Virus record (IMG/VR): IMGVR_UViG_3300021400_000048
Location: 1-56,790 of that record
Direction: 5' to 3' (one strand)
DNA length: 56,790 nucleotides
Source: a virus
Lineage: Duplodnaviria; Heunggongvirae; Uroviricota; Caudoviricetes
The number at the start of each line of letters is the position of its first letter. The stretch's first letter is position 1. The notes under the pieces are model-generated. The model saw only the letters and a program-made list of their open reading frames with translations, was not told the origin of the DNA and did not search any database. This document shows positions 1-12,078 of the stretch, one piece after another. A program made the position numbers and the translations under genes.

Positions 1-233
1 TCATCTAACGATAATGTTGATGGATAATCTTCAACCTGCTTCACTTCCCTCTTCGAGACGCACTGTTAAAGTAATCGAAGTCTTTGATTACACATCTACG
101 GAATACGTTCTCACGCAACCGCATCTATAATAATAGTATAGACTAATTTTACTTGCAACCTATTATTTAGTCATTTCCTCTATTACCACAGCTTCCCAAG
201 AATATTTTTATTCAATTTAGACCGTGTTTTGGT

Positions 234-318
234 TGGTTGCGGAGGTCAGGAGTCGAACCTGCTATCTCAAGGTTATGAGCCTTGAATGGTTTATAGATAT
301 CCGTGCCACTCCTCCGCA
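234..318 (-). tRNA. tRNA-Met(CAT), fMet-like 3' end, enlarged D region
   Basis: CAAGG-CTCATAA-CCTTG anticodon arm, TTCGACT T-loop, TGCGGAG/CTCCGCA acceptor, encoded CCA. Confidence 0.8.
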
Positions 319-329
319 ATATTAATAGA

Positions 330-417
330 AGTTCCAGCCTGACCCTACCAAGCCCCTCATATTTTTGAGTCTATAGCCTCTAAATATGCATGCCACAACT
401 TCCAGCACCTTGGAACT
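330..417 (-). ncRNA. Candidate small structured RNA
   Basis: Terminal stem AGTTCCA/TGGAACT, inner stem CATATTT/AAATATG, starts directly after a TTGTATAAT promoter (421-435). Confidence 0.4.
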
Positions 418-420
418 ATT

Positions 421-435
421 ATATTATACAATAAA
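421..435 (-). promoter_or_regulatory. Sigma70-like extended -10 promoter motif (TATTGTATAATAwwAT), repeated through the window
   Basis: Further copies at about 4551, 7601, 11001, 11157, 13021, 18741, 23296, 27760, 30997, 32001, 35670, 43167, 45961, 46055 (minus) and 46111 (plus, before the topoisomerase B gene), each at an operon start. Confidence 0.75.
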
Positions 436-708
436 AATTTTAAAATTATTTGAAAGTTTTTTGACTACAGGATAACTTGCAACCCGCCCACCATCCAGTG
501 CGATTTATTATATTCTCACTTATGAATACACTTTGCACAAACATTTGAAGGAAAATTTTTCCAAATAAATCGCAGTAGGCTTCCCTGTCACAGTAAACCT
601 CTTAATAGCCTGATCTTGAATTTATATAGCGAAACGCAGGGTTTTTTCGCTGGCCAGATTTTCTCAATTATGGATAGTTAGAAAATCTCGACCATATATT
701 AAATATAC

Positions 709-783
709 TGGTCCTCCCAGATTGAATTGAACAATCACTCTTGCCCTTATAAGGAGCCTGCTTTACCATTAAGCTACAGGAGG
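709..783 (-). tRNA. tRNA-Ile(TAT)
   Basis: Cloverleaf, loop CT-TAT-AA, CCA. Confidence 0.8.
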
Positions 784-785
784 AT

Positions 786-859
786 TGGTGGAGACAGCTG
801 GAATCGAACCAACATAGTTAGATGGTACCACTTCCTAACCTTTACCAAAATTCGTCCCC
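786..859 (-). ncRNA. tRNA-like RNA, reduced D-arm, 13-nt anticodon loop
   Basis: GGGGACG/TGTCTCC acceptor, TTCGATT T-loop, CCA; GTTAG-GAAGTGGTACCAT-CTAAC. Confidence 0.55.
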
Positions 860-863
860 ATAT

Positions 864-940
864 TGGTAGAAGCGGAAAGACTTGAACTTTCAACCTCTCG
901 GTTATCGGCCGAGTGCGCTAACCAGTTGTGCCACGCTTCC
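864..940 (-). tRNA. tRNA-Ile(GAT)
   Basis: Cloverleaf, loop CC-GAT-AA, CCA. Confidence 0.9.
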
Positions 941-1207
941 AGAGACCTCAGGCCCGAATGACACTGAAGTATGATCCTGCAGATTTAGCCTCATCTGCAA
1001 AAGCCTCAGTTCTTCTCAAACCTGAACACTGATAAAACGGTTGTATCGCTTAGTATGCCAAGTGCATCTGTCGATCAATTAACCAATATTTGATCCAAAC
1101 TAAGCTAGTCTGTTAGTCTCTTAACCACCCGGCACAGACAACTGGTAGCATTTCGTTTGCTCACGCCTATCTTTTTTGGTTAGAGGCATAAGAATTAGTC
1201 CTCTTAA

Positions 1208-1286
1208 TGGTGGATCCAAAGAGAATTGAACTCTTCTGATTTCCGCATTGCAGGTGCGGCGACCACCCCATGCAGTCCCTGAACCC
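1208..1286 (-). tRNA. tRNA-Ala(TGC)
   Basis: CCGCA-CCTGCAA-TGCGG, CCA. Confidence 0.85.
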
Positions 1287-1289
1287 AAA

Positions 1290-1510
1290 TTATAAATAGG
1301 GTTGCTTAAGGTGAACCCTCTAACGCCTCGTTTATGGCGACACAACCTATTAACCGAATACACCGTTTCCAGCCGTTTAATAGGACAAAATATTTTGACT
1401 TTTTAAAAATAGTACATACGATATTATAACCTTGCAGGCACAACCCTGCTAGCAAGACTTTCTCCTGGAGTTCCCCGGCTTTCTTAATCTTATTTTTGGG
1501 CATTTCAGCT
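1290..1510 (-). ncRNA. Candidate structured RNA
   Basis: Relatively GC-rich intergenic block with nested helices (CTTGC-TAGCAGG-GTTGTG-CCTGC-AAG). Confidence 0.3.
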
Positions 1511-1618
1511 TATTCAATATATTAAGTAGTCCACTTACTATTAATAATTATTCTTTTTAAAGTCGACATCCAAAGAAATTATTAATAACACTCAATTCAG
1601 TACCAGGTGGTGGAACAT

Positions 1619-1694
1619 TGGCGTGCTTAGAAAGATTCGAACTCTCGTCTGTTGGTTCGTAGCCAACTAGTTTCTCCAATTAGCCTATAAGCAC
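1619..1694 (-). tRNA. tRNA-Arg(ACG)
   Basis: GTTGG-CTACGAA-CCAAC, CCA. Confidence 0.9.
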
Positions 1695-1699
1695 AAAAT

Positions 1700-1875
1700 A
1701 ATCAGGTCTTTGGTGACTCTGCGAATTTCCACACCTAGTATGTTATCCAATTCCCTAACGCTATACTCGGGTTATCGACCTGAAGCTCCTTCGCTCTCTT
1801 TGTAGTTTATTCGAACACTATAACGATATCGATTTTATTTATTGTCTGAACAGCACGACTGTCTTTCTTTTTCGA
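1700..1875 (-). ncRNA. Candidate structured RNA
   Basis: CAGGTC/GACCTG closing stem, GGTG/CACC inner stem, AGACAG..GTCT-type hairpin, no ORF. Confidence 0.35.
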
Positions 1876-1899
1876 TAAATAGACATTTAATCCATATTA

Positions 1900-2115
1900 T
1901 TATAGCCTATCAGCAATAACTGCTAATATTACACCAATGATAATTAATAAAAGGCCTAAACCAATACTAAAAATTATTGGACTTAATACCCAAAACCAAT
2001 TCCAGTCAATAACTCCACATAATTTTAATACTACAAAAACAATTGTTAATATAGAGCCTAGTCCAAGACCTCCACTTCTTACTACTTTTGTTTCTTGTTT
2101 TGGTTCATTATACAT
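1900..2115 (-). CDS. Small two-TM membrane protein (holin-like possible)
   Basis: 71 aa, two hydrophobic segments, SD AAAGGA. Confidence 0.7.
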   Translation of the reverse strand: MYNEPKQETKVVRSGGLGLGSILTIVFVVLKLCGVIDWNWFWVLSPIIFSIGLGLLLIIIGVILAVIADRL

Positions 2116-2137
2116 ATTAATTTTTCCTTTCTTTTAA

Positions 2138-2223
2138 TGGTGGGCAGAGAAGGAGTTGCACCTCCGTTGTTTCTATGTGAGGGATTTACAGTCCCTTGCC
2201 CTCGCTGCTAGGCATACCTGCCC
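2138..2223 (-). tRNA. tRNA-Tyr(GTA)
   Basis: AGGGA-CTGTAAA-TCCCT, long variable arm, CCA. Confidence 0.9.
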
Positions 2224-2227
2224 AATT

Positions 2228-2302
2228 TGGAGCAAGTGGACGGGATCGAACCGACACTCCCAGCTTGGAGGGCTGGAGCACTAACCATTATACTACACCT
2301 GC
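2228..2302 (-). tRNA. tRNA-Gly(TCC)
   Basis: CCAGC-CCTCCAA-GCTGG, U73, CCA. Confidence 0.9.
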
Positions 2303-2310
2303 AAATATTT

Positions 2311-2375
2311 GGCCTAACTAATATGAATTTCTTAGCAGGAAAATGCCTTACGGCTAGAAATAAGTATAGGCTCTA
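2311..2375 (-). repeat. Bracket element C (short insert containing TCCTGCTA)
   Basis: TAGA-GCCTA-T-AC-TTATTTCT ... TCATATTA-GT-TAGGC-C. Confidence 0.8.
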
Positions 2376-2392
2376 TTTTATTTTTAATTTAA

Positions 2393-2505
2393 GGCTGAAC
2401 TTTTATTTTGGCGAGAATAGGATTTGAACCTATAACCTCTGGACTAGAATTCCAGTGCTCTACCAATTGAGCTATCCTGCTAAAAAGAAATAAGTATCAG
2501 CTCTA
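2393..2505 (-). tRNA. Bracket element B enclosing an atypical tRNA(TCT) (2409-2481) with shortened acceptor 3' strand
   Basis: TAGA-GCTGA-T-AC-TTATTTCT-TTTT|AGCAGGA...CTGGA-ATTCTAG-TCCAG...CCTAT-TCTCG-CCA|AAATAAAA-GT-TCAGC-C. Confidence 0.7.
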
Positions 2506-2523
2506 TTTTTATTTTTAATTTTT

Positions 2524-2642
2524 GGCTCAGCTAACATTACGGTGCTCTACCTCTGAGCTATATCCTAGGCACTGCTAGAATAGCAAGATTTGAACTTGCG
2601 ACCACCGGCTTACAAGGCAAATAGAAATAAGCATGAGCTCTA
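2524..2642 (-). tRNA. Circularly permuted tRNA-Thr(TGT) in bracket A (3' half 2576-2618, 5' half 2540-2567)
   Basis: Rejoined at 29/30 it gives a full cloverleaf: acceptor TAGGATA/TATTCTA, anticodon stem CCG|GC/GCCGG, loop CTTGTAA, T-arm GCAAG-TTCAAAT-CTTGC; 8-nt linker. Confidence 0.9.
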
Positions 2643-2644
2643 TC

Positions 2645-2736
2645 TGGCGGAGAGTGTAGGATTCGAACCTACGGTCCCCCTTACGGAGGACGACAGTTTA
2701 GCAAACTGCTGGGTTAAGCCACTCCCCCAACTCTCC
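2645..2736 (-). tRNA. tRNA-Ser(GCT)
   Basis: Loop TT-GCT-AA, long variable arm, G73, CCA. Confidence 0.9.
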
Positions 2737-2743
2737 GTATAAA

Positions 2744-2820
2744 TGGTGACCCCAGCGGGATTCGAACCCACAATCTCAGCTGTGAAGGAGCCGTGACTTA
2801 ACCAATTCGTCTATGAGGCC
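2744..2820 (-). tRNA. tRNA-Glu(TTC)
   Basis: CGGCT-CCTTCAC-AGCTG, CCA. Confidence 0.85.
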
Positions 2821-2825
2821 ATATA

Positions 2826-2903
2826 TGGCGGCCCAACTAGGACTTGAACCTAGGACCTACGGTTTAACAGACCGTTGCTACTAACCAACTGAGCTACTGG
2901 GCC
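2826..2903 (-). tRNA. tRNA-Asn(GTT)
   Basis: ACGGT-CTGTTAA-ACCGT, G73, CCA. Confidence 0.9.
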
Positions 2904-2912
2904 ATTAGCTCG

Positions 2913-4088
2913 CTATTCACAAGCTTTGAAGTTGTAAATAGGAGTTATTATATTAATTATTTCAATAGTATCACTGACTTTATCAATGATTTCTTGAGCA
3001 TTTTTATATACCATTGGTGCTTCATCAATAGTATCTTGGTCTGCAGTTGTAGTATAAATACCTTGCATTGCATTTTGGAAATCTTCTAATTGTAAATTTG
3101 CTCTTGCTTCACTTCTTGACATAATGCGTCCAGCACCATGTGGAGCAGAATAATTCCAATCTTCATTTCCTTTTCCAATACCAATTATACTACCATCTCG
3201 CATATTTAAAGGTATAATTAATTTTTGTCCTTTATAGGCAGAAATTGCACCTTTACGAACTATATTATCATCACCAATATAATTATGAATAGATTCAAAA
3301 ATATTAATTGGTCTTATATTTAAGAATTTTAATATTTTTTCTAACATTAATCTTCTATTTTCTTTTGCAAAAACTTGACAAATTCTCATATCATGAAGAT
3401 ATTGTTCTCTTAATTCACCTTCTAAAAAACATAAATCTTTTGGAATTGAATAATCTTCAAATTGCTTATGTAAATCTTTTAATGCATCAGAAATTTCTGC
3501 TTGGCGACCTTGTGCTTTTAATTTAGCAATTAGCTCAACACTTTTTTCCTTAAAGAAATCATTATGACACATTTTAACTGCTTTATCTTGATAAATATCA
3601 GCAACTTGCTTTCCTAAATTTCTTGAGCCTGAATGAATTACTAAATATTTATTATCATCAGCATCTTTATCAATTTCAATAAAATGGTTTCCGCCGCCTA
3701 ATGAACAAATACTTAATGCTAAATAATCTTTATTTCTTAATTCATTATAGCAATATAATTTAGTAATGTCAAAATCTTCAACAATATAATCATTTGCATT
3801 CATTCCGCTTGGAATTTTTGTTTTGATAAAATTATCAACAGCTTCTAAATTAATATCAACTTTACCAAGTTCTGCAACAATTACACCGCAACCAATATCT
3901 ACACCAACAATATTTGGAATTACTTTATCACCTAAGTTCGCAGTAAAACCAATTACACATCCTGCACCAGCATGAACATCTGGCATAATTCTTACCTTAG
4001 CATTTCTAAATGGCGCAAGATTTAATAAAGTATAAATTTGATTTGTTGCTTTTGGATCAATATTTTCTGTGAATATTTTTAAATTCAT
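2913..4088 (-). CDS. rtcB: RtcB family RNA ligase
   Basis: MPDVHAG, GVDIGCG, SLGGGNHFIE, IHSGSR, HNYI, SAPHGAGR, DEAPMVYK motifs; ATG at 4088 after AGGTG (ORF track starts at 4097). Confidence 0.95.
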   Translation of the reverse strand: MNLKIFTENIDPKATNQIYTLLNLAPFRNAKVRIMPDVHAGAGCVIGFTANLGDKVIPNIVGVDIGCGVIVAELGKVDINLEAVDNFIKTKIPSGMNANDYIVEDFDITKLYCYNELRNKDYLALSICSLGGGNHFIEIDKDADDNKYLVIHSGSRNLGKQVADIYQDKAVKMCHNDFFKEKSVELIAKLKAQGRQAEISDALKDLHKQFEDYSIPKDLCFLEGELREQYLHDMRICQVFAKENRRLMLEKILKFLNIRPINIFESIHNYIGDDNIVRKGAISAYKGQKLIIPLNMRDGSIIGIGKGNEDWNYSAPHGAGRIMSRSEARANLQLEDFQNAMQGIYTTTADQDTIDEAPMVYKNAQEIIDKVSDTIEIINIITPIYNFKACE

Positions 4089-4106
4089 TCTAATCACCTA
4101 ATTTCT

Positions 4107-4287
4107 GACATGACTAATATAACGCCGGCTTTACCAATTTGCCTATTTCCCCAAATTGGCCGAACTTCTTATAAAATAACCCAAATATTTGTAAAAAGAA
4201 ATAAGTATCGGCTCTATCTGGTGGGGAAAGCTGGAATCGAACCAGCATACAGCGGCTCCCAAAGCAAAGAAATAAGTACAGGTTCTA
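4107..4287 (-). tRNA. Circularly permuted tRNA-Pro(TGG) (3' half 4219-4265, 5' half 4123-4152)
   Basis: Rejoined at 29/30: acceptor GGGGAAA/TTTCCCC, stem GCG|GC/GCCGC, loop TTTGGGA, T-arm GCTGG-TTCGATT-CCAGC, A73-CCA; outer bracket ACCTG-T-AC / GT-CATGT. Confidence 0.9.
4158..4216 (-). repeat. Bracket element D nested in the linker of the permuted tRNA-Pro
   Basis: TAGA-GCCGA-T-AC-TTATTTCT ... TATAAGAA-GT-TCGGC-C. Confidence 0.8.
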
Positions 4288-4291
4288 TTTT

Positions 4292-4365
4292 TGGCAGGCA
4301 CTGAAAGAATCGAACTCTCATCAGGTGTTTTGGAGACACTTATTCTACCGTTAAACTAAGCACCT
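4292..4365 (-). tRNA. tRNA-Trp(CCA)
   Basis: Loop CT-CCA-AA, G73, CCA. Confidence 0.85.
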
Positions 4366-4379
4366 ACTATACTATTATA

Positions 4380-4454
4380 TGGTCCCAGTTGCTTGACTCG
4401 AACAAGCATTGGTCGGGTATGAACCGACTTTCCTAGCCGTTAAAAGAAACTGGG
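4380..4454 (-). tRNA. tRNA(CAT), Met or Ile2
   Basis: GTCGG-TTCATAC-CCGAC, CCA. Confidence 0.8.
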
Positions 4455-4459
4455 ATAAA

Positions 4460-4534
4460 TGGTGCCGATTGACAGATTCGAACTGCCATTAGAAGTTTAC
4501 AAGACTACTGTACTAGCCATTATACGAAACCGGC
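4460..4534 (-). tRNA. tRNA-Thr(TGT), linear
   Basis: GCCGGTT/AATCGGC acceptor, loop CTTGTAA, one T-T mismatch in the anticodon stem. Confidence 0.85.
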
Positions 4535-4740
4535 AATGTTATTTACTACATTATATTATACAATAAAATATAGTAAATTTAGTAGAATTATTTTATTTCA
4601 TTTAAGTTTAAATTATAATCAATAAATAATTCTGCAACAGTGTTTAAAAAGCTTTTAACTCTTCTTAACATTTTATTATTTCCCTTCTAGGTTTTAACGT
4701 CTTTTATCTTGACAATTTTACTAGAAGAAGATGAAGCCAT

Positions 4741-4816
4741 TGGGGTGTCCTGCCAGAATTGAACTGACAACTTCAGGGCCACAACCTAACGTGATAACCA
4801 TTTCACCAAGAACGCC
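4741..4816 (-). tRNA. tRNA-His(GTG)
   Basis: Loop TT-GTG-GC, G-1/C73, CCA. Confidence 0.85.
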
Positions 4817-4824
4817 ATATATAT

Positions 4825-4898
4825 TGGAGCATCGAGTCAGGATCGAACTGACGGTCAGGGTGTTGCAGACCCTTGCCTTACCGCTTGGCTACCGATGC
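4825..4898 (-). tRNA. tRNA-Cys(GCA)
   Basis: AGGGT-CTGCAAC-ACCCT, U73, CCA. Confidence 0.9.
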
Positions 4899-4904
4899 AA
4901 GTAT

Positions 4905-4981
4905 TGGTACCTTACATAGGAGTAGAACCTATACTGTAATGGGTTTGAGCCATCTTTCTCTACCAGTTGGAATAGTAAGGC
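4905..4981 (-). tRNA. tRNA(CAA), nominal Leu, short variable arm
   Basis: GATGG-CTCAAAC-CCATT, CCA. Confidence 0.7.
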
Positions 4982-5010
4982 ATGTAAAGCTAAGTTTAAA
5001 AACTTAACTT

Positions 5011-5430
5011 TTAATTATTTTCTCTGGCAATCTTACTTACTAAAGCCATATCAACTTGTCCATTATAGTTTGTTTTGAAAAACTTCATAATAGATGGGAT
5101 TGACTTATCAGGCAAATCATTGATTAATTCTTTTATTTTATCTTCTGATAATTGTTTTGGTAAGTATTCTTTAATTAATTCTTTTTGTTTTGTTAATTCG
5201 TCAGCTTTTTCAATTCTATTTACTTTTACATTAGCCTCAATTTCTTCATCTAATTGTTTATTTAATTTTCTTATAATATTATAAACTTCAGAATCCCCTA
5301 ATGTATCTGTTCTTAATTCAATAGTTTTATTTTTTAAACTATTATAAAGTAAACCAAGAATATTCTTCGCTAATTCATTTTTTTCTTTTCTGGCATTGAT
5401 AAAATCTGTATAAATCTTATTATATAGCAT
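5011..5430 (-). CDS. GatB/YqeY domain protein
   Basis: 139 aa helical; ARKEKN, K..REIKEYLPKQLSED, GQVDMALVSK pattern of YqeY. Confidence 0.85.
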   Translation of the reverse strand: MLYNKIYTDFINARKEKNELAKNILGLLYNSLKNKTIELRTDTLGDSEVYNIIRKLNKQLDEEIEANVKVNRIEKADELTKQKELIKEYLPKQLSEDKIKELINDLPDKSIPSIMKFFKTNYNGQVDMALVSKIARENN

Positions 5431-5453
5431 ATTTATATTCCTTTCTTGTCTTT

Positions 5454-5538
5454 TGGAAGAGTGATTAGGATTTGCACCTAAACTTGCTGTGTCTGTAATT
5501 ACCCCTGGGAGCTATGCTACTAGTTACATTATCACTCT
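5454..5538 (-). ncRNA. tRNA-like RNA with expanded non-canonical anticodon arm
   Basis: AGAGTGA/TCACTCT acceptor, TTAGG-TGCAAAT-CCTAA, U73-CCA; GCT[22 nt]AGC in place of the anticodon arm. Confidence 0.55.
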
Positions 5539-5543
5539 ATTAA

Positions 5544-5620
5544 TGGTGCGCCCAGCAGGACTCGAACCTGCAAAATTCAGTTTCTAAGACTGGCACCTAT
5601 ACCAGTTCGGTTATGAGCGC
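5544..5620 (-). tRNA. tRNA(TAG), nominal Leu, short variable arm
   Basis: CCAGT-CTTAGAA-ACTGA, CCA. Confidence 0.8.
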
Positions 5621-5623
5621 ATA

Positions 5624-5700
5624 TGGTCAGGGTAGTAGGATTCGAACCTACAACTTCTAAGTTCCAGGCCTAGTGGTCTACCAAATTGACGTATACCCTG
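5624..5700 (-). tRNA. tRNA-Pro(TGG), linear
   Basis: C1-G72, A73, loop CC-TGG-AA. Confidence 0.85.
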
Positions 5701-5706
5701 ATTTAT

Positions 5707-5796
5707 TGGCGAAGAGTGTAGGATTTGAACCCACGGTGGCTTTCACCACGTCTGATTTCAAGTCAGGTGCAATAAACCAAACTCTGCCAACTCTCC
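5707..5796 (-). tRNA. tRNA-Ser(TGA)
   Basis: Loop CT-TGA-AA, long variable arm, G73. Confidence 0.9.
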
Positions 5797-5807
5797 AAAA
5801 TTATTCA

Positions 5808-5981
5808 CTAATTTAATTCTTTTTTAGTTTCTGATTTTTCTTTTTGTCTTAAGTGCTTTCTATGAAGTCTACCTTTAACAAAATCCTTATAGACTTTGCA
5901 ATGTCTTCTAACTCGTTTATTTTTTCTTTGACAAGTTAAATAATCACACCAACAACAACAATTAATTATTTCTTTCTTCAT
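5808..5981 (-). CDS. Small basic Cys-rich hypothetical protein (57 aa)
   Basis: SD AAGGA; MKKEIINCCCWCDYLTCQRKNKRVRRH... Confidence 0.45.
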   Translation of the reverse strand: MKKEIINCCCWCDYLTCQRKNKRVRRHCKVYKDFVKGRLHRKHLRQKEKSETKKELN

Positions 5982-5998
5982 AAATAATTCCTTTTTAA

Positions 5999-6074
5999 TG
6001 GCGGTCCCCCTTGGAATTGCACCAAGTTCTGCGGATTTTCAGTCCGCTGCATAGACTACCTCTGCCAGAGAACC
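5999..6074 (-). tRNA. tRNA-Phe(GAA)
   Basis: GCGGA-CTGAAAA-TCCGC, CCA. Confidence 0.85.
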
Positions 6075-6082
6075 ATATATTT

Positions 6083-6152
6083 GGCCTAGCTTCACACCCA
6101 TTGATTAAAAGTCAATTGCTCTATTGAGCTCTAGAAATAAGCATAGGCTCTA
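6083..6152 (-). repeat. Bracket element E enclosing D- and anticodon arms of a tRNA-Lys(TTT)
   Basis: TAGA-GCCTA-T-GC-TTATTTCT-AGAGCTCAATAGAGC-A-ATTGA-CTTTTAA-TCAAT...GC-TAGGC-C. Confidence 0.8.
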
Positions 6153-6162
6153 ATTATTTATT

Positions 6163-6249
6163 TGGTGGCCCGGGTGGGATTTGAACCCACACGCCTTTAC
6201 GGGCAAGGGATTTTAAGTCCCTCGTGTCTACCTATTCCGCCACCGGGCC
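6163..6249 (-). tRNA. tRNA-Leu(TAA)
   Basis: Anticodon TAA, long variable arm, A73-CCA. Confidence 0.9.
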
Positions 6250-6253
6250 ATAT

Positions 6254-6334
6254 TGGTGCAGGAAGGCAATGACTCCAGACTTGCATTTCTCATTTCTGAG
6301 CGTTCTTTTTATCGAGCAGTTGAACTACTTCCCT
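6254..6334 (-). ncRNA. Degenerate tRNA-like RNA with GAAA-tetraloop arm
   Basis: AGGGAAG/CTTCCTG acceptor-like stem, ends ACCA, CTCA-GAAA-TGAG in place of the anticodon arm. Confidence 0.4.
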
Positions 6335-6487
6335 ACGATTTAGAACTAGCTACAAATCGAGAAAACTTGCTATTTTTAAGTTGATTTATTTGCCACCTAT
6401 CCATAATGTGGTCGTGGAGATACTTATATACCGCACTCTCTGGGTCCTTAGGGCGGTCCAACTGGTTTATTTAGTTTTCCTTCTAAT

Positions 6488-6564
6488 TGGTGCTCTGAGC
6501 ATGGATCGAACCTACGACATCTTGCTTGTAGGACAAGTGCTCATCCCAACTGAGCTATCAGAGC
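6488..6564 (-). tRNA. tRNA-Val(TAC)
   Basis: Loop CC-TAC-AA, CCA. Confidence 0.9.
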
Positions 6565-6568
6565 ATAT

Positions 6569-6643
6569 TGGAGCAGATAAACAGGATCGAACTGTCATTT
6601 CAACCATGGCAAGGTCGCGTAATAGCCATTATACCATATCTGC
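6569..6643 (-). tRNA. tRNA-Gly(GCC)
   Basis: CGACC-TTGCCAT-GGTTG, U73. Confidence 0.9.
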
Positions 6644-6651
6644 AAATTTAT

Positions 6652-6726
6652 TGGCATCCCCAGAAGGATTCGAACCTTCACAAATGGCTTAGAAGGCCAT
6701 TGGTCTTTCCGTTAGCCTATGAGGAT
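6652..6726 (-). tRNA. tRNA-Arg(TCT)
   Basis: ATGGC-CTTCTAA-GCCAT, G73. Confidence 0.85.
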
Positions 6727-6729
6727 ATT

Positions 6730-6805
6730 TGGTGCGTCTTCAGAGATTCGAACTCTGGACCAACAGATTAAGAGTCTGCTACTCTACCAGCTGAGTTAAA
6801 GACGC
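6730..6805 (-). tRNA. tRNA-Lys(CTT)
   Basis: GCAGA-CTCTTAA-TCTGT. Confidence 0.9.
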
Positions 6806-6813
6806 GCAACTAT

Positions 6814-6889
6814 TGGTGCGCTTGAACAGGCTCGAACTGTCGACCCACGGATTAAAAGTCCGCTGCTCTACCTACTGAGCTACAAGCGC
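6814..6889 (-). tRNA. tRNA-Lys(TTT)
   Basis: GCGGA-CTTTTAA-TCCGT. Confidence 0.9.
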
Positions 6890-6960
6890 ATAAAGTTTTC
6901 GATATTTAGTTGTTTGTTTAGATTTTCGCTTCATACGCTTAATCTCCTTTAATTTATTTT

Positions 6961-7035
6961 TGGCAGGGCCGTGCTGATTTGAACAGCAATTTACTGGGTC
7001 AAAGCCAGTTGAACTAACCATTGTTCTACAGCCCT
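6961..7035 (-). tRNA. tRNA-Gln(TTG)
   Basis: ACTGG-CTTTGAC-CCAGT, G73-CCA. Confidence 0.85.
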
Positions 7036-7129
7036 AAATAATTTTACAATATTATTATACTATATATTTTTTAATTTGTAAATAGTTTTTAAAACGAAAA
7101 CGTTTTCTATTTAGTAAATTCAAAACAGC

Positions 7130-7157
7130 GAAAAAAAATGGATCCTTACGGACCCAA
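7130..7157 (-). terminator. Intrinsic terminator
   Basis: GGGTCC-GTAA-GGATCC followed by a T-tract. Confidence 0.7.
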
Positions 7158-7205
7158 AGATATATATGAACATCTATTCCAAAAATATACTAAGACTTGA
7201 TATTC

Positions 7206-7397
7206 TTAACTTGCTAACAAACTTCTATTCATATTAGCTGTTTTTATATTTTTAGAATTTAAGATGGACAATATGATTGGGTCTCCTTTTAAAAGACGGC
7301 ATGTAGGCGCAACTAAAAGAGTCTTAATAGATACTAAACTATCAAAACCTGGTTCTCTATGATTATTATATTGTTTACAAATCATATTAAATAGCAT
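7206..7397 (-). CDS. Hypothetical small protein (63 aa)
   Basis: SD AAGGAG before ATG (MLFNMIC...), followed by a terminator. Confidence 0.45.
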   Translation of the reverse strand: MLFNMICKQYNNHREPGFDSLVSIKTLLVAPTCRLLKGDPIILSILNSKNIKTANMNRSLLAS

Positions 7398-7467
7398 AAC
7401 CTTGCTCCTTTTAAAAATTTTTATAAAATACAAATTAGTTTATTAACTAATTAGTTAAATGCTCTTT

Positions 7468-7487
7468 ACATTTTAATTTAGCTAATA
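7468..7487 (-). promoter_or_regulatory. Second upstream motif class (GCTAAATTAA-[A]ATGT/TAGT)
   Basis: Near-identical copies at 7468-7487, 18210-18228 and 19025-19039, each upstream of a transcription unit. Confidence 0.5.
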
Positions 7488-7622
7488 TTTTTTTAATATT
7501 TTATTATTTTAATAAATAACTTTTTATGCTCAGAAAAGTTATTGAAAAACTGTTTATACGTAATGTATTAAATTAACAAATAGGTAGTATATTTACCTAT
7601 ATATTATTATACAATAAATTTT

Positions 7623-8621
7623 TTAAAATTTTAAACCAATTTTAAAATAAATTTCAGAAATTTTTTTATCTGCTCTTATTTTAGCTTTTTCAGCGCCGGT
7701 CATTAAAATTTTATTTAATTTATTAATATCAGTTTTTAACTCATTTACTTTATTTTGAATTTTTAAACATTCTGCACAAACAATATCTGCAACAGCTTTT
7801 TTAAAAATTCCATAATCTTTTTCATCTTTAAATATTTCTACAGCATCTTCTATAGAAATATCTTTTAAGCCAGCATAGATAGAAAGTAAATTACTAATTC
7901 CAGGCTTATGCTCAGGATCATAATAAATTTTACTTTCTGCATCTGTAACTGCTTTCATAATTTTTTTACGAGTTTTTTCAATATCTTCTAAAAGATAAAT
8001 AGTTCCTTTATCAGATTCAGATTTACTCATCTTTTTTGTTGGGTCAGATAAAGACATAATTTTAGCACCAGTTTTTGAAATAATAGGTTTTGGTAATTTA
8101 AAAGTTTCACCATAAGTTCTATTAAATCTATCAGCAAGTATTTTAGTTAATTCAATATGTTGGACTTGATCAATACCAACAGGAACATAATCGGCATCAT
8201 ATAATAATATATCTGCAGCCATTAAACTTGGATACATAAAAATTCCTGTTGGAATGCCTTCATGAGCAGTTATACTAGCTGCCTTTAGCTGATATTGATG
8301 CATTTCATAAAAATGTCTCATAACAGAATTACAAGTTAATATCCACTCTAATTGATTATGAGCAGGAACATCTGACTGTTTAAATAATACTGTTTTTTTA
8401 TCATCTAACCCAGCAGCTAAATATGTTGCAATTAAATTTAGTGAATTTTCTTTTAATTCTTCTGGCTTAATTGGAAGTGTTAATGCATGCAAATCAGCAA
8501 TAAATATATATAAATTATATTCATCTTGATATTTTACAAGCGGTTTAATTGCTCCAAGCAATGTGCCAAGAGTTGGTATACCTGTTGGTTTTATACCAGA
8601 TAACATTATAGCTTTATTCAT
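7623..8621 (-). CDS. trpS: Tryptophanyl-tRNA synthetase
   Basis: SGIKPTG, HIGH-like TLG, YPSLMAADILLY, VPVGIDQVQHIELT, KMSKS. Confidence 0.95.
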   Translation of the reverse strand: MNKAIMLSGIKPTGIPTLGTLLGAIKPLVKYQDEYNLYIFIADLHALTLPIKPEELKENSLNLIATYLAAGLDDKKTVLFKQSDVPAHNQLEWILTCNSVMRHFYEMHQYQLKAASITAHEGIPTGIFMYPSLMAADILLYDADYVPVGIDQVQHIELTKILADRFNRTYGETFKLPKPIISKTGAKIMSLSDPTKKMSKSESDKGTIYLLEDIEKTRKKIMKAVTDAESKIYYDPEHKPGISNLLSIYAGLKDISIEDAVEIFKDEKDYGIFKKAVADIVCAECLKIQNKVNELKTDINKLNKILMTGAEKAKIRADKKISEIYFKIGLKF

Positions 8622-8622
8622 A

Positions 8623-10995
8623 TTAAGCCTCTAAAATATTTCTAGTTAATACTTCTGGTAATAATTCTTCAATATGACTAACTGGAATAATTTTTAAATT
8701 ATTTTTAATTTCATCTGGCAAATCTTCAATATCTCGCTCATTTTCTTTTGGAATATAAATTGTATCAAGACCTGCTGTATAAGCCGCAATTGATTTTTCT
8801 TTTAGACCACCAATTGGAAGAATACGGCCTCTTAATGAAATTTCACCAGTCATACCAACATTATGTTTTACTGGAGTATCTGACATAGCACTTAGCATTG
8901 CAGTAACAAATGTTACACCAGCAGATGGTCCATCTTTAGGTACTGCTCCTTCTGGACAGTGAATATGTAAGTCAGAGTGGAATTGTGAATTAGTCATATT
9001 AAATAACATTTTATGAGATTTAATCCAGTTATAAGCAGCTTCTGCAGATTCTTTCATTACTTCACCAAGATTACCTGTAATTGTATAACTACCATTACTA
9101 TCATCTTTACCTTGAGTTGCTACTGCTTCAATTTGTAAAACATCTCCACCAAAATCAGTATAAGCTAAACCATTAACAACGCCAACTAAATCTTCTTTTT
9201 CAACGATATCATAGTCATACTTTCTCTTGCCAAGCATTTCTTTTAATAAAGCAGTATCAACAACAACTTTATCTAAATGCTCAGACATAATCTTTTTAAT
9301 AGATCTTCTAACTACTGTATCAATACAACGTTCTAATTGACGAGCACCAGCTTCACGTGTATAATATCTAATTAATTCATCTAAAGCTTCATCAGTTATT
9401 TTAAATTTTTCAGGTTCAAGACCATTTTTTTCTAACGATTTAGCAATAGTATGTTCCCTTGCAATATTAAATTTTTCAAGTCTTGTATAGCTTGACAATT
9501 CAATAATTTCCATTCTATCTCTAAGAGGTGCTGGAATTGAATATAAATCATTAGCTGTACAAATAAACATAACTTCTGATAAATCAAATTCTAATTCAAG
9601 ATAATGATCCATAAAATGTTCATTTTGTGCAGGGTCTAAAACTTCAAGTAATGATGCGCTTGGGTCACCTTTATAATCAGCACCAAGTTTATCTATTTCA
9701 TCTAATAGGAATACAGGATTTTTAGAGCCAGCTTCTTTAATACCATTAATAATTCTACCTGGCAAAGCTCCTAAATAAGTTCTTCTATGACCTCTAATTT
9801 CAGCTTCATCTTTTACACCGCCAAGTGATTGCTTAACAAACTTTCTTCCAAGTGCTTCAGCTATTGATTTTGCAATAGTTGTTTTACCAGTTCCTGGAGG
9901 GCCAGCTAAGCAAAGAATAGTTTGTGGTGTTTTTTGAGAATATAATTTAACTGCAAGATAATCTAAAATTCTTTCTTTAGGCTTATCAAGACCAGAATGT
10001 GTTTCATCAAGTTTTGCTTTAACAGCATCAATATCTGTATTATCTTCAGTTCTTACATTCCAAGGAAGTGCAAGTAAAGTATCAAGATAGTTTCTAATCA
10101 TTGAAGATTCGGGTGAAGCGCCATTTGTTGATTGATAGCGCTTTAACTCTCTTAATGCTTGGTTTTCTGCAGCCTCATGCATACCAATAGATTTAATTTT
10201 TTCCCTTAGACTATCTATATCAGCAGTAGCTTTATCAACATCACCAAGGTCCTCTTGAATAGCTCTTAATTTTTTTCGTAAATAGTATTCTTTTTGCTCT
10301 TTCATTATATCAGCTTGTACAGAGCTTTCAATTTGTCTATCAATTTCTGCAAGCTTTTCAACCTGTAGCATTAAAGAAGCAACTTTATGAAGTCTACTAT
10401 TAAACTCAGTATCAGCTAAAAAATCATAGATATTAACTTTAACTACTGACAAATTTGCAACAATTGTATCACAAAGTAAGGACTTCTTATCTTCTGCATC
10501 TAAGTATTGCTCAACAGCAAAAATATCTGAAAAAACTTGGTCTTTATATTTTCTTGCTTTTTTACAAATTACATTAAAAAGAGCAGCTGATTCATCTGTA
10601 AGATCTTCAGTATCAGTATAAACTTGAAGGTCTGCACATTGATAGTTAAGAACTTCAGCCCCAATTGAATTATTTAATTCAAAAGTATCATCCATCATAC
10701 TTACTAAATAAGCTCTTTTTTCTAAAACAATGTTAAATGATACACTTTCATCTGAAATAAAAGTAATATTTTGAAAAGTGCCAAATAGCCCAGCTGGCTT
10801 TACTGTTAGAGTTTCTTTATCTCTAAAAAATACACTTACTTGATTCTTAAAATAATTTTGTGATACTTTACATGTATCTATAAAAAATTTACTCGCAGTT
10901 ACCAAATTAATAGTTGTTCCAGGCAAAACTGGTTCTTCATCAAATACTATTATTGGTGCTTGTTTAATTTCTTGATAAGTCATATAATACCTCAT
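8623..10995 (-). CDS. lon: Lon ATP-dependent protease
   Basis: GPPGTGKT, LLDEIDK, PKDGPSAG catalytic Ser, ILPIGGLKEK. Confidence 0.95.
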   Translation of the reverse strand: MRYYMTYQEIKQAPIIVFDEEPVLPGTTINLVTASKFFIDTCKVSQNYFKNQVSVFFRDKETLTVKPAGLFGTFQNITFISDESVSFNIVLEKRAYLVSMMDDTFELNNSIGAEVLNYQCADLQVYTDTEDLTDESAALFNVICKKARKYKDQVFSDIFAVEQYLDAEDKKSLLCDTIVANLSVVKVNIYDFLADTEFNSRLHKVASLMLQVEKLAEIDRQIESSVQADIMKEQKEYYLRKKLRAIQEDLGDVDKATADIDSLREKIKSIGMHEAAENQALRELKRYQSTNGASPESSMIRNYLDTLLALPWNVRTEDNTDIDAVKAKLDETHSGLDKPKERILDYLAVKLYSQKTPQTILCLAGPPGTGKTTIAKSIAEALGRKFVKQSLGGVKDEAEIRGHRRTYLGALPGRIINGIKEAGSKNPVFLLDEIDKLGADYKGDPSASLLEVLDPAQNEHFMDHYLELEFDLSEVMFICTANDLYSIPAPLRDRMEIIELSSYTRLEKFNIAREHTIAKSLEKNGLEPEKFKITDEALDELIRYYTREAGARQLERCIDTVVRRSIKKIMSEHLDKVVVDTALLKEMLGKRKYDYDIVEKEDLVGVVNGLAYTDFGGDVLQIEAVATQGKDDSNGSYTITGNLGEVMKESAEAAYNWIKSHKMLFNMTNSQFHSDLHIHCPEGAVPKDGPSAGVTFVTAMLSAMSDTPVKHNVGMTGEISLRGRILPIGGLKEKSIAAYTAGLDTIYIPKENERDIEDLPDEIKNNLKIIPVSHIEELLPEVLTRNILEA

Positions 10996-11042
10996 TTACT
11001 ATATTATTATACAATATTTTTATAATATTTTTAATTAAAAAT

Positions 11043-11071
11043 ACCAATTTAATATCAAATTAAACTGGTAT
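11043..11071 (-). terminator. Terminator after the suppressor tRNA
   Basis: ATACCAGTTTA/TAAATTGGTAT inverted repeat with T-tract. Confidence 0.55.
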
Positions 11072-11080
11072 TTATTTACT

Positions 11081-11155
11081 TGGCGGAGGCTGAAGGATTC
11101 GAACCCTCGATGATGGTTTTGAAGACCATAGGCATAACCACTTACCGAAGCCTCC
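11081..11155 (-). tRNA. Opal suppressor tRNA-Trp(TCA)
   Basis: GGAGGCT/AGCCTCC acceptor, ATGGT-CT-TCA-AA-ACCAT, short variable arm (not Sec), G73-CCA; has its own promoter and terminator. Confidence 0.92.
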
Positions 11156-11309
11156 ATAATATTATACAATATAATCTAGATAATTGCCGTCAATATATTT
11201 CAAGTAGGAGGAAATAAATATGAAATATGGATATTAGGAGGAATTTGCTGAATGTTTTGTTTATTTGTCATTCATTCAACGACAATTTGTTTCAAAAATA
11301 ATGCTCTTT

Positions 11310-11462
11310 ATTAATTTCACGGCTCTGGGTAGAAACTAACTAAATCCCCTTGTCATCTTTCACCGACATGGCGGTAGCATTTACCTTACGCGTCAACGCT
11401 ACAAAGAGGTCTGGTCTATCTGGCAGGAAGAGCATCCTTGCCACACGTGAGACTGCCCGTGT
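11310..11462 (-). ncRNA. Candidate structured RNA upstream of the suppressor tRNA
   Basis: CACGG(GC)/(GC)CGTG closing stem; GGCAAGGA..TCCTGCC and GTAGC..GCTAC helices; GC-rich in an AT-rich context; strand uncertain. Confidence 0.4.
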
Positions 11463-11469
11463 ATATATT

Positions 11470-12078
11470 TTAAATATGTTCTACATAAAAATCTTTTTCA
11501 ACTGGTTCTATTACATGATAAATATAATCATCATATTTACTTATTGGATTTTCTCTGTCTATTGCTCTAATAGTTTCTTTTCTAAAAATTGCAGTATTAG
11601 AATTTACTGTGTCAGTAATAACTTTAATATAATCCATAACGCTTATAGGCTTTTCAGTTAATAATATTCTTTCTTTATCTTTTAATTCATAAACATTATA
11701 TCTTGGTTCATAATCTTTTTTAAGATTTTCTAAATATTGATCTATGTTATATGGAAACCAATAAGGTTCTACTTTATGAACTTCTTGTAGGCACCAAGAA
11801 ATAAATTCTATTGCTTCTCCACGACTATTATATTCATCATCTTCGCCATCATAAAAATTCATAACTAATTGTTGACTAATACATTCCTCGCAAAGTTGTT
11901 TTAATGTATAAATTGCATACTCTTCATCAATTTTAAACATTTCTGGAAAATATTGTTTAACTTTCTCATATACTCCACTTGGCATTAAATGATTATTACG
12001 AGTATAGCCATAACGACATTCAGAAATTAAAAATTGATATAAATCTTTTAAACTAACTTTAACTGTTTTTTCTGCCAT
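11470..12078 (-). CDS. Hypothetical protein
   Basis: 202-aa ORF, coupled to the upstream gene. Confidence 0.8.
   Translation of the reverse strand: MAEKTVKVSLKDLYQFLISECRYGYTRNNHLMPSGVYEKVKQYFPEMFKIDEEYAIYTLKQLCEECISQQLVMNFYDGEDDEYNSRGEAIEFISWCLQEVHKVEPYWFPYNIDQYLENLKKDYEPRYNVYELKDKERILLTEKPISVMDYIKVITDTVNSNTAIFRKETIRAIDRENPISKYDDYIYHVIEPVEKDFYVEHI

What the first reader, a model, noticed from the sequence alone, without database searches (positions are those of the whole stretch)
4107..4287. Permuted tRNA-Pro(UGG) whose linker contains a second, nested bracket
Seen: 3' half (GC-TTTGGGA-GCCGC...TTTCCCC-A-CCA, 4219-4265), then a complete inner bracket D (4158-4216), then the 5' half GGGGAAA-TA-GGCA-AATTGGTAA-AGCC-G-GCG (4123-4152), then the outer trailer. 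The acceptor is 7/7 Watson-Crick, and the anticodon stem is 5/5 only if the split is at 29/30, the same as Thr. The outer stem has one mismatch (ACCTG/CATGT). Its anticodon loop is canonical, whereas the linear Pro gene (5624-5700) has C33/A37. Inference: nesting implies ordered, two-step processing, or a bracket that can insert into other brackets.
Basis: partly seen in the sequence, partly recalled or inferred. Interest (0 to 1): 0.88.

Follow-up and report, generated by a model that had tools for sequence, protein, structure and literature searches.

The report
Back-to-front phage tRNA-Pro gene, nested brackets
A large rumen phage encodes a proline tRNA with its second half placed before its first half, wrapped in a conserved RNA "bracket" with a second bracket in the joint, which suggests that bacterial viruses have an undescribed way of handling, and perhaps cutting and rejoining, tRNAs.

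Summary
The order is outer leader, tRNA-Pro(UGG) nt 30-76 with encoded ACCA, a complete inner bracket, tRNA nt 1-29, outer trailer, then rtcB 18 nt further on.

Rejoined, the halves give a canonical 77-nt tRNA-Pro. None of 3000 shuffles does.

A related phage about 80% identical (G001) has the same nested layout. It shows six double compensatory changes across all four tRNA stems and none that break a pair.

The bracket is a real covarying RNA family. 75 of 89 leaders have a perfectly matching trailer, against about 14 in controls, with 27 stem variants.

Four other permuted Pro homologues have linkers of only 1-6 nt. The inner bracket is therefore a lineage-specific module and is not needed for the permuted gene.

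The flanks form no bulge-helix-bulge motif. The phage has no splicing endonuclease and no Ro60. Four other bracket-bearing phages lack RtcB.

Brackets flank a conserved ~650-aa helical+TerD protein in about 25 loci, which makes it the likely partner.

No RNA data cover the locus, so cut-and-rejoin maturation (my best reading, about 0.45) is not separated from a Y-RNA-like clamped tRNA mimic (about 0.35).

Unchecked first-reader notes of this scan on other phage windows (e1-5372281, e1-5414868, e1-5428032, e1-1850673) describe covarying motif copies around a TerD-domain gene, likely the same family.

The parts
4268..4287 (-). Outer bracket leader: TAGA, stem strand ACCTG, bulged T, ACTT, then the conserved single strand ATTTCT
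   Evidence: It matches the family consensus. Its homologues in L027 and L208 pair perfectly.
4219..4265 (-). tRNA-Pro(UGG) 3' half, nt 30-76: GC, loop TTTGGGA, GCCGC, variable loop, T arm, acceptor 3' strand, A73, CCA
4158..4216 (-). Inner (D-type) bracket in the linker: leader 4216-4197, cargo 4196-4168, trailer 4167-4158. Stem is GCCGA/TCGGC plus ACTT/AAGT.
   Evidence: The bracket stem is identical in G001.
4174..4190 (-). Cargo hairpin of the inner bracket: 5-bp stem AAATA/TATTT with a 7-nt loop TTTGGGT, a look-alike of a Pro(UGG) anticodon arm
   Evidence: It is in the centroid fold. There are two compensatory pairs against G001. The same class occurs in at least 9 other contigs.
4123..4152 (-). 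tRNA-Pro 5' half, nt 1-29: acceptor 5' strand GGGGAAA, TA, D arm, G26, GCG
4107..4122 (-). 6-nt spacer TTATAT and outer bracket trailer TAGT-CATGT-C (one C.U mismatch with the leader)
2913..4088 (-). rtcB (RNA 3'-phosphate/5'-OH ligase). Its ATG lies 18 nt after the outer trailer and it is co-oriented with it.
   Evidence: Pfam RtcB E 3e-56. There is no terminator-like site between; a promoter-like site lies at 4577-4550 upstream of tRNA-Thr.
4292..4534 (-). Linear tRNA-Thr, -Met and -Trp genes of the same predicted transcription unit. Trp ends 4 nt before the outer leader.
   Evidence: Synteny is the same in G001.

Best explanation
This is a real, selected, circularly permuted tRNA-Pro(UGG) gene. 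It is one cargo of a phage RNA module, the 'bracket'. The bracket is a covarying 5+3-bp stem with a bulged U, flanked by invariant UAGA, UUAUUUCU and C.

Most likely pathway:
1. The gene is transcribed with tRNA-Thr, -Met and -Trp and with rtcB.
2. The two halves fold into a tRNA body whose anticodon stem is interrupted between nt 29 and 30.
3. The bracket arms are cut off there.
4. The nick is sealed by an RNA ligase. Candidates are RtcB encoded next door, the phage Pnkp-Rnl1 fusion, or a host enzyme.
5. The acceptor end is opened in the linker, by RNase P at G1 and 3' trimming back to the encoded CCA.

The inner bracket is an independent module carrying a Pro-anticodon-arm look-alike. It has lodged in the linker and would come off as a separate small RNA.

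The bracket itself is probably the handle for a conserved helical+TerD protein.

Shown: the anatomy, its conservation, the covariation and the gene neighbourhoods. Inferred: every RNA-level step, the nuclease, the ligase and the protein partner.
For: - The rejoined halves give ARAGORN tRNA-Pro(tgg); 0 of 3000 shuffles do.
- G001 (about 80% nt identity) has the same nested layout. It shows 6 double compensatory changes: acceptor 2-71, D stem 11-24, anticodon stem 28-42, 29-41 and 31-39, and T stem 50-64. No pair is broken. Some of these pairs join the two halves.
- Six permuted Pro-like genes keep 20/20 to 21/21 stem pairs. All six keep A73 plus CCA, although their linkers range from 1 to 66 nt.
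- The break point differs between close homologues (29/30 against 31/32) while a 5-bp stem is kept.
- Seven other permuted tRNAs in brackets have canonical loops with U33 and a purine at 37, and they carry different anticodons: Thr, Lys, Arg, Asn.
- The bracket family is real. 75 of 89 leaders have a 7/7 matching trailer, against a mean of 13.8 with swapped stems, and there are 27 stem variants. Brackets always lie on the tRNA strand.
- rtcB starts 18 nt after the trailer. A kinase-phosphatase-Rnl1 ligase fusion is also encoded.
- G001 has no linear tRNA-Pro among its 20 tRNAs. In L208 the permuted Pro(AGG) follows a linear Pro(CGG), so the two are not redundant there.
Against: - No RNA evidence exists for any cut or joint.
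- There is no bulge-helix-bulge geometry at the break. EndA is absent from the phage, and no known ribozyme is found.
- The spacers between bracket stem and break vary (leader 6-11 nt, trailer 3-9 nt), so there is no fixed-distance cut.
- RtcB is absent from four near-complete bracket-bearing phages, and no RNA ligase family is common to all of them.
- Many bracket cargos cannot become tRNAs. Some are anticodon-arm hairpins, some are D arm plus anticodon arm, and some are T arm plus acceptor hairpins.
- Several permuted tRNAs have 2-4-nt linkers, in at least one case a tetraloop-like UUCG.
- Some relatives have odd loops: A33 or an 8-nt loop in G001.
- Permuted tRNAs mostly duplicate anticodons that are already present as linear genes.
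Confidence: 0.45

Rival explanations
1. Clamped tRNA mimic, working like a Y RNA. The bracket is never removed. It is the binding stem for a protein (the helical+TerD family), and the permuted tRNA body is displayed as a non-aminoacylatable look-alike whose acceptor end is closed by the linker. It could act as a decoy for, or a tether to, tRNA-directed enzymes such as anticodon nucleases or repair and processing enzymes. The nested bracket is then simply a second handle.
For: - The topology (stem, T arm, closed acceptor, D arm, stem) is that of YrlA. Rfam YrlA weakly hits the sister permuted Thr, at 33.8 bits.
- Brackets cluster around one conserved protein gene in the way Y RNAs cluster around Ro60.
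- Many cargos are only parts of tRNAs.
- Some acceptor linkers are very short or tetraloop-like, and some relatives have A33 or 8-nt loops.
- Anticodons are redundant with linear genes.
- RtcB is missing from other bracket-bearing phages.
- Y RNA loci sit with RtcB in bacteria (PMC4201824).
Against: - A full anticodon arm with real, varied anticodons is kept. In YrlA the Rsr (Ro60)-binding stem occupies the place where a tRNA has its anticodon stem.
- The break always sums to an exact 5-bp stem.
- All six Pro-like genes keep ACCA.
- No TROVE gene is present and there is no GNCGAA motif.
- The partner protein shows no TROVE signal.
Confidence: 0.35
2. Two-piece tRNA. The linker is cut (RNase P plus 3' trimming, with the inner bracket lost), but the 29/30 break is never sealed. 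The halves stay together through the acceptor stem, the anticodon stem and the bracket clamp, as in two-piece tmRNAs from permuted ssrA genes.
For: - The gene order matches that of permuted tmRNA genes. There are weak Rfam tmRNA_permuted and beta_tmRNA hits at 4144-4246.
- It needs no unknown nuclease or ligase.
- It fits the phages that lack RtcB.
Against: - An extra helix leaving the anticodon stem at 29/30 should, from general knowledge of tRNA-ribosome contacts, clash with the ribosome.
- The Rfam scores are far below threshold (20.4 against 47).
- Permuted genes with linkers of 1-2 nt leave little to cut.
Confidence: 0.08
3. No RNA function. The halves are remnants of a tandem tRNA-Pro duplication or deletion, and the brackets are small inverted-repeat mobile DNA elements that have scattered through the tRNA arrays.
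For: - A tandem duplication followed by loss is the usual origin story for permuted genes.
- Brackets are modular, and one sits inside another.
- The outer stem in this phage has a mismatch.
Against: - Compensatory changes keep every tRNA stem across six homologues.
- The bracket stems covary and are strand-specific with respect to transcription.
- The single-stranded motifs are invariant.
- The nesting is conserved at about 80% genome identity.
Confidence: 0.04

Closest known systems
Circularly permuted tRNA genes of Cyanidioschyzon merolae (Soma et al. 2007, cited in PMC3400036) and, from my own knowledge, of some green algae and Thermofilum pendens
   Same: The 3' half lies upstream of the 5' half on one strand, with a short intervening piece between the acceptor ends. 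Leader and trailer pair with each other. The proposed route goes through excision, ligation and then end processing.
   Different: - The host is a bacteriophage.
- The flanks form a conserved sequence-specific bracket and not a bulge-helix-bulge motif.
- No splicing endonuclease is present.
- The break lies inside the 5' strand of the anticodon stem.
- A second bracket is nested in the linker.
- The same bracket also carries cargos that are not tRNAs.
YrlA-type bacterial and phage Y RNAs with Ro60/Rsr (Rfam RF02553; Chen et al. 2014, PMC4201824)
   Same: The order of T arm, closed acceptor-like stem and D arm between two strands of a terminal stem is the same. The elements cluster next to a conserved protein gene and near RtcB.
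   Different: - A complete anticodon stem-loop is retained here.
- There is no GNCGAA(N)G motif.
- No TROVE protein is encoded in the genome.
- The neighbouring protein is helical+TerD.
- The Rfam score is well below the gathering threshold.
Two-piece tmRNA from permuted ssrA genes (Rfam RF04321)
   Same: The acceptor/T-arm 3' part with CCA is encoded ahead of the acceptor 5' strand, and the piece between them is removed.
   Different: There is no tag reading frame and no pseudoknots, the body is a full tRNA cloverleaf, and the score is 20.4 bits against a threshold of 47.
Archaeal BHB-bracketed RNAs that are excised and circularised by EndA plus RtcB (pre-rRNAs, permuted SRP RNA, tRNA-intron circles; general knowledge, PMC4238349)
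   Same: A leader-trailer helix encloses varied cargos and an RtcB-type ligase is at hand, so the logic of a generic excise-and-join cassette is shared.
   Different: The motif differs, no EndA is present, it is found in a phage of bacteria, and the chemistry of the ends is unknown.

Membership tests
Circularly permuted tRNA gene (C. merolae / T. pendens kind) | The 3' half lies upstream of the 5' half on the same strand, and the two rejoin to a canonical cloverleaf | tested here: met
Circularly permuted tRNA gene (C. merolae / T. pendens kind) | Leader and trailer form a bulge-helix-bulge motif at the junction | tested here: not met
   No 4-bp central helix is possible in BHB geometry within shifts of +/-2. 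A different, conserved bracket is present instead.
Circularly permuted tRNA gene (C. merolae / T. pendens kind) | A tRNA splicing endonuclease is available | tested here: not met
   PF01974 is absent from the complete phage genome, and the controls rang. The host is unknown; bacteria generally lack this enzyme (general knowledge).
Circularly permuted tRNA gene (C. merolae / T. pendens kind) | Expression goes through a circular RNA intermediate or a junction read | not testable with these tools
   No RNA run holds the locus
YrlA / Y RNA | Encoded next to a Ro60 (TROVE) gene | tested here: not met
   PF05731 is absent from the genome. The neighbouring-protein family shows no TROVE signal by Pfam. 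The fold comparison is inconclusive for the helical part.
YrlA / Y RNA | GNCGAA(N0-1)G Rsr-binding motif near the 5' end | tested here: not met
   No match in 4291-4089. The motif is as defined in PMC4201824.
YrlA / Y RNA | Reaches the Rfam RF02553 gathering score | tested here: not met
   No hit on the Pro locus. The sister Thr locus scores 33.8 against 69 bits.
YrlA / Y RNA | A tRNA-like T arm and D arm with the acceptor-like stem closed, lying between the strands of a terminal stem | tested here: met
   The topology of the primary transcript matches, but a full anticodon arm is present as well.
Permuted (two-piece) tmRNA | Reaches the Rfam RF04321 gathering score, with tag ORF and pseudoknots | tested here: not met
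   20.4 against 47 bits. ARAGORN finds no tmRNA.
Phage 'bracket' RNA family (defined here) | Leader UAGA-N5-U-RC-UUAUUUCU, with trailer A-GY-N5'-C complementary at all 7 variable positions | tested here: met
   The inner bracket matches 7/7. The outer bracket matches 6/7, with one C.U mismatch.

The most novel reading that the evidence does not exclude
Large gut and rumen phages carry an RNA cut-and-join system that does not depend on the bulge-helix-bulge motif or on EndA. In this reading a ~35-nt bracket motif is bound by a conserved helical+TerD protein and marks cargos for excision at helix junctions. Ligases (RtcB, Rnl or host) then close the cargos. This would make contiguous tRNAs from back-to-front genes and small closed anticodon-arm RNAs. 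Nested brackets would give two products from one precursor in a set order.
Probability: 0.3. Interest if true: 0.95.

Novelty: new variant of a known kind. Interest (0 to 1): 0.8.

Why it matters
Permuted tRNA genes are known only from a few algae and one archaeon. There they depend on the bulge-helix-bulge motif and the splicing endonuclease, which bacteria lack.

A conserved family of permuted tRNAs in bacteriophages, flanked by a different motif, leads to one of two conclusions. Either there is an unknown RNA excision and ligation route in the bacterial world, or there is a new class of protein-bound tRNA mimics comparable to Y RNAs.

Either would change how phage tRNA arrays, phage RtcB/Pnkp 'repair' genes and the conflict with host anticodon nucleases are read. 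It would also mean that standard tRNA finders miss part of the phage tRNA complement.

The nested case gives a natural experiment: the same module occurs at two levels of one precursor.

Tried and rejected
- RNA evidence. Two run searches were made. Contigs of four metatranscriptome runs were laid on 1-12000. No RNA holder of the bracket region was listed. Only cross-matching tRNAs and a few rtcB contigs of a relative were laid, and there was no joint at 4123/4265. This says nothing either way.
- Known RNA families. Rfam at E<=1 over 1-12000 gave no ribozyme and no family on the bracket. It gave only sub-threshold tmRNA hits on the Pro locus and a sub-threshold YrlA hit on the Thr locus.
- BHB geometry: none.
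- EndA and TROVE in the phage genome: none.
- RtcB as an obligatory phage-encoded partner: rejected, because it is absent from G002-G005. Rnl1 and Rnl2 are also not universal.
- More nested relatives. Scans with a pattern from the 5' half, in the viral and metagenome collections, found only G001 and one unrelated linear tRNA-like gene, L126.
- Scan of prokaryote genomes for the leader. The 105 hits are about what I estimate chance alone would give for a pattern of this length in 596 Gb. Only 6 have a proper trailer.
- Partner protein. Pfam, PHROGs, PDB sequence search, Foldseek, VIA and AlphaFold DB show only the TerD domain and a helical repeat. No nuclease and no TROVE fold was listed, and the helical part remains barely tested. 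The ESM Atlas look-up was uninformative.
- ARAGORN on rotated and trimmed cargos was too permissive to locate the junctions. I replaced it with an explicit stem parser.
- The MFE fold of the precursor is no more stable than shuffles (z -0.19). This is uninformative for AU-rich tRNA-like RNAs.
- My early reading of a U.U mismatch in the bracket was wrong. It is a single bulged U.
- The 8-nt complementarity between the bracketed Arg tRNA 5' end and the next bracket's cargo: I now read that cargo as a D arm plus a Ser(GCU) anticodon arm, so the match may be a coincidence. I did not pursue it.
- A short proximal helix between the leader end and the trailer start appears in some members only and is not significant in AU-rich sequence.

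Full report
**Context**

The window is the first 56.8 kb of a complete 223-kb phage genome with terminal repeats. Earlier notes of this scan describe it as a rumen phage that reads TGA as Trp, so I read ORFs outside the window with code 4. Bases 7035-700 hold a minus-strand array of 27 tRNA genes. The finding lies in the 203-nt gap between tRNA-Trp (4365-4292) and a 394-aa ORF. Pfam identifies that ORF as RtcB at E 3e-56.

**Observation**

Read on the minus strand, the gap holds these pieces in order:
- AAAA.
- Outer leader TAGA-ACCTG-T-ACTT-ATTTCT (4287-4268), then TT.
- tRNA nt 30-76 (4265-4219): GC, loop TTTGGGA, GCCGC, TGTAT, T arm GCTGG-TTCGATT-CCAGC, TTTCCCC, A, CCA.
- GA.
- A complete second bracket (4216-4158).
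- AATTT.
- tRNA nt 1-29 (4152-4123): GGGGAAA, TA, D arm, G, GCG.
- TTATAT.
- Outer trailer TAGT-CATGT-C (4116-4107).
- 18 nt containing AGGTGA, then the rtcB ATG at 4088.

Joined 29|30, the halves give a 77-nt sequence that ARAGORN calls tRNA-Pro(tgg). It has a 7/7 acceptor stem, a 5/5 anticodon stem, U33 and G37. None of 3000 shuffles of that sequence gives any tRNA call.

**The bracket is a real RNA family**

- The leader pattern occurs seven times in this genome, always on the minus strand: six times in the window and once at 96.1 kb, where a degenerate copy follows it.
- An exact-pattern scan of IMG/VR found 45 loci in about 30 contigs.
- The anatomy is UAGA, a 5-nt stem strand, one bulged U, RC, then UUAUUUCU in the leader. 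The trailer is A, GY, the complementary 5 nt, an invariant C, and an A-rich run.
- Of 89 distinct leaders, 75 have a trailer complementary at all seven variable positions within 200 nt. With stems swapped among instances the mean is 13.8 and the maximum 21. There are 27 different stem variants.
- Brackets lie on the same strand as the tRNA genes around them. This argues for an RNA-level element.
- Rfam has no family for it.

**Cargos are of several kinds**

- Permuted whole tRNAs: Pro, Thr, Lys, Arg, Asn and Gly-like. They break at 28/29, 29/30 or 31/32.
- Linear tRNA-like sequences.
- Hairpins of about 30 nt that look like anticodon arms.
- A D arm plus an anticodon arm.
- A T arm plus an acceptor hairpin.

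The spacers between the bracket stem and the tRNA ends vary (leader 6-11 nt, trailer 3-9 nt).

**Conservation of the nested Pro gene**

One other phage has the same layout. It is G001, a 237-kb contig that aligns with this genome at about 80% identity over 108 kb. Its order is tRNA-Trp, outer bracket, 3' half with ACCA, inner bracket, 5' half, trailer, rtcB.

Between the two genomes:
- There are six double compensatory changes in the tRNA: one in the acceptor stem, one in the D stem, three in the anticodon stem and one in the T stem. No tRNA pair is broken. Some of these pairs join the two halves.
- The outer bracket stem has two compensatory changes.
- The hairpin inside the inner bracket has two, and its loop UUUGGGU is unchanged.
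- The break has moved from 29/30 here to 31/32 in G001, yet a 5-bp stem is kept.

Four further permuted Pro-like genes exist: L208, L027, L017 and L006. All six keep 20/20 to 21/21 stem pairs and an encoded A73-CCA. Their linkers are 66, 64, 4, 6, 1 and 2 nt.

So the nested bracket is confined to this phage and G001. It is old enough to be shared at about 80% identity, and the permuted gene does not need it as such.

The inner bracket belongs to a recognisable class: a hairpin with loop UUUGGGA or UUUGGGU. That class stands alone in at least 9 other contigs, often a few bases after a TATAAT-type promoter.

**What would process it?**

- The flanks cannot form a bulge-helix-bulge motif.
- The phage has no splicing endonuclease.
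- It has no Ro60/TROVE protein.
- It does encode RtcB beside the locus. It also encodes a kinase-phosphoesterase-Rnl1 fusion of the bacterial Pnkp type at 89.3-91.7 kb. Iyer and colleagues read such genes in jumbo phages as tRNA repair (PMC7824862).
- Four other near-complete bracket-bearing phages that carry permuted tRNAs have no RtcB, and they share no single RNA ligase family. RtcB is therefore a plausible ligase here but not a dedicated partner.

**A candidate protein partner**

In this genome two brackets sit just upstream of a 651-aa ORF at 93.9-96.0 kb. Its homologue in G003, 47% identical, also has a bracket upstream.

The same arrangement holds in 18 of the bracket loci: one to three short-cargo brackets about 90-170 nt before the gene's start, and permuted-tRNA brackets 30-400 nt after its stop. 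It also holds in two independently fetched homologues, in G001, and in three of the six true brackets found in prokaryote assemblies.

One complete phage, G005, has a single bracket and no such gene.

The family has more than 500 members and no Pfam or PHROG match. Its model (pLDDT 81) is a helical repeat followed by a TerD-like sandwich (Z 14.7). Whole-length look-alikes in AlphaFold DB are named only 'TerD family protein'. No nuclease or TROVE fold was listed; the helical part is barely tested. Unchecked first-reader notes of this scan on other phage windows describe motif copies around a TerD-domain gene, and I confirmed the same association independently here.

**Weighing the mechanism**

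For cut-and-rejoin:
- The halves rebuild a complete, canonical tRNA across the break.
- The break position drifts while the stem stays 5 bp long.
- Anticodon loops of most permuted members are canonical and of many specificities.
- All Pro-like members keep ACCA.
- G001 has no linear tRNA-Pro among its 20 tRNAs. In L208 the permuted Pro(AGG) follows a linear Pro(CGG).

Against cut-and-rejoin:
- There is no RNA evidence.
- No nuclease is known, and there is no fixed cut distance.
- Many cargos cannot become tRNAs.
- Some acceptor stems are capped by 2-4 nt.
- Some relatives have A33 or 8-nt loops.
- Permuted tRNAs mostly duplicate the anticodons of linear genes in the same genome.

The main rival is a bracket-clamped tRNA mimic bound by the TerD-family protein. 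It would work like YrlA with Ro60, although it fails every membership test for that family.

I put cut-and-rejoin at about 0.45, the clamped mimic at about 0.35, a two-piece tRNA at about 0.08 and a functionless relic at about 0.04.

**The nesting**

Under cut-and-rejoin, the inner bracket would be released from the linker as a separate small RNA, and the tRNA ends would then be finished by RNase P and 3' trimming. An order of events is plausible but unshown. Under the mimic reading, the inner bracket is a second handle on the same RNA.

The comparative data show three things. The inner bracket is an autonomous module that is also found elsewhere on its own. It was gained in, or retained only by, one lineage. 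It has since been kept under selection for its hairpin.

**Novelty**

Searches of the paper library found no report of permuted or split tRNA genes in phages. The known cases are algal and archaeal and depend on the bulge-helix-bulge motif (PMC3400036).

Noticed in passing
G000 93944-95971, minus strand (L129:7945-9972), outside the window: A conserved ~650-aa helical+TerD protein of unknown function (more than 500 homologues, no Pfam or PHROG match). Its gene is flanked by bracket RNAs in about 25 loci from many phage contigs. It is a candidate bracket-binding protein.
   Followed up: partly
G000 89336-91681, minus strand (L129:3337-5682): A 781-aa fusion of a P-loop kinase, a metallophosphoesterase and an Rnl1-type RNA ligase, with the architecture of bacterial Pnkp. 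It gives the phage a second RNA end-healing and sealing route besides RtcB.
   Followed up: partly
window 2642-2510 (minus): A sister permuted tRNA-Thr(UGU) in a bracket, also broken at 29/30. It has an 8-nt linker and no CCA. Rfam YrlA hits it weakly (33.8 bits).
   Followed up: partly
window 2505-2311 (minus): A bracket around a linear tRNA-Arg(UCU)-like sequence with A1.C72 and A4.C69 mismatches and no CCA. The next bracket's cargo (a D arm plus a Ser-GCU-like anticodon arm) contains an 8-nt complement of that tRNA's 5' end. A relative (L011) keeps the A1.C72 mismatch.
   Followed up: no
window 6152-6083 (minus); G001 235146: A bracket carrying only a mini D arm plus an intact Lys(UUU) anticodon arm. 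It is conserved at the same array position in G001, where the D hairpin has changed but is kept. tRNA-Lys(UUU) is the classical PrrC target (general knowledge).
   Followed up: no
window 863-784 (minus): A tRNA-like gene (Rfam tRNA 25 bits, below threshold) whose T arm and acceptor stem resemble those of the permuted Pro. Its anticodon stem encloses a 13-nt loop.
   Followed up: no
window 5543-5431 and 2223-2141 (minus): Two more tRNA-like genes that ARAGORN misses. One has an 8-bp acceptor stem, a T arm and CCA but an odd middle. The other is an 83-nt Tyr(GUA)-like gene that Rfam scores at 43.9 bits.
   Followed up: no
window 3772-3744 (minus), inside rtcB: A perfect sigma-70 consensus (TTGACA, 17 nt, TG, TATAAT; 12 of 12 matches) lies within the rtcB coding sequence.
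   Followed up: no
window 6487-6250, 1618-1287, 1207-941 and 700-1 (minus): ORF-free stretches between tRNA genes that look helix-rich and comparatively GC-rich by eye (not measured). They have no Rfam match at E<=1 apart from a tRNA-Sec-like hit at 318-238.
   Followed up: no
L028, L208, L027 (relatives): The permuted Pro homologues in relatives carry anticodon AGG (A34), unusual for bacterial-type tRNAs. Two of them have 8- or 9-nt anticodon loops or A33. Several bracket hairpins also have A33.
   Followed up: partly
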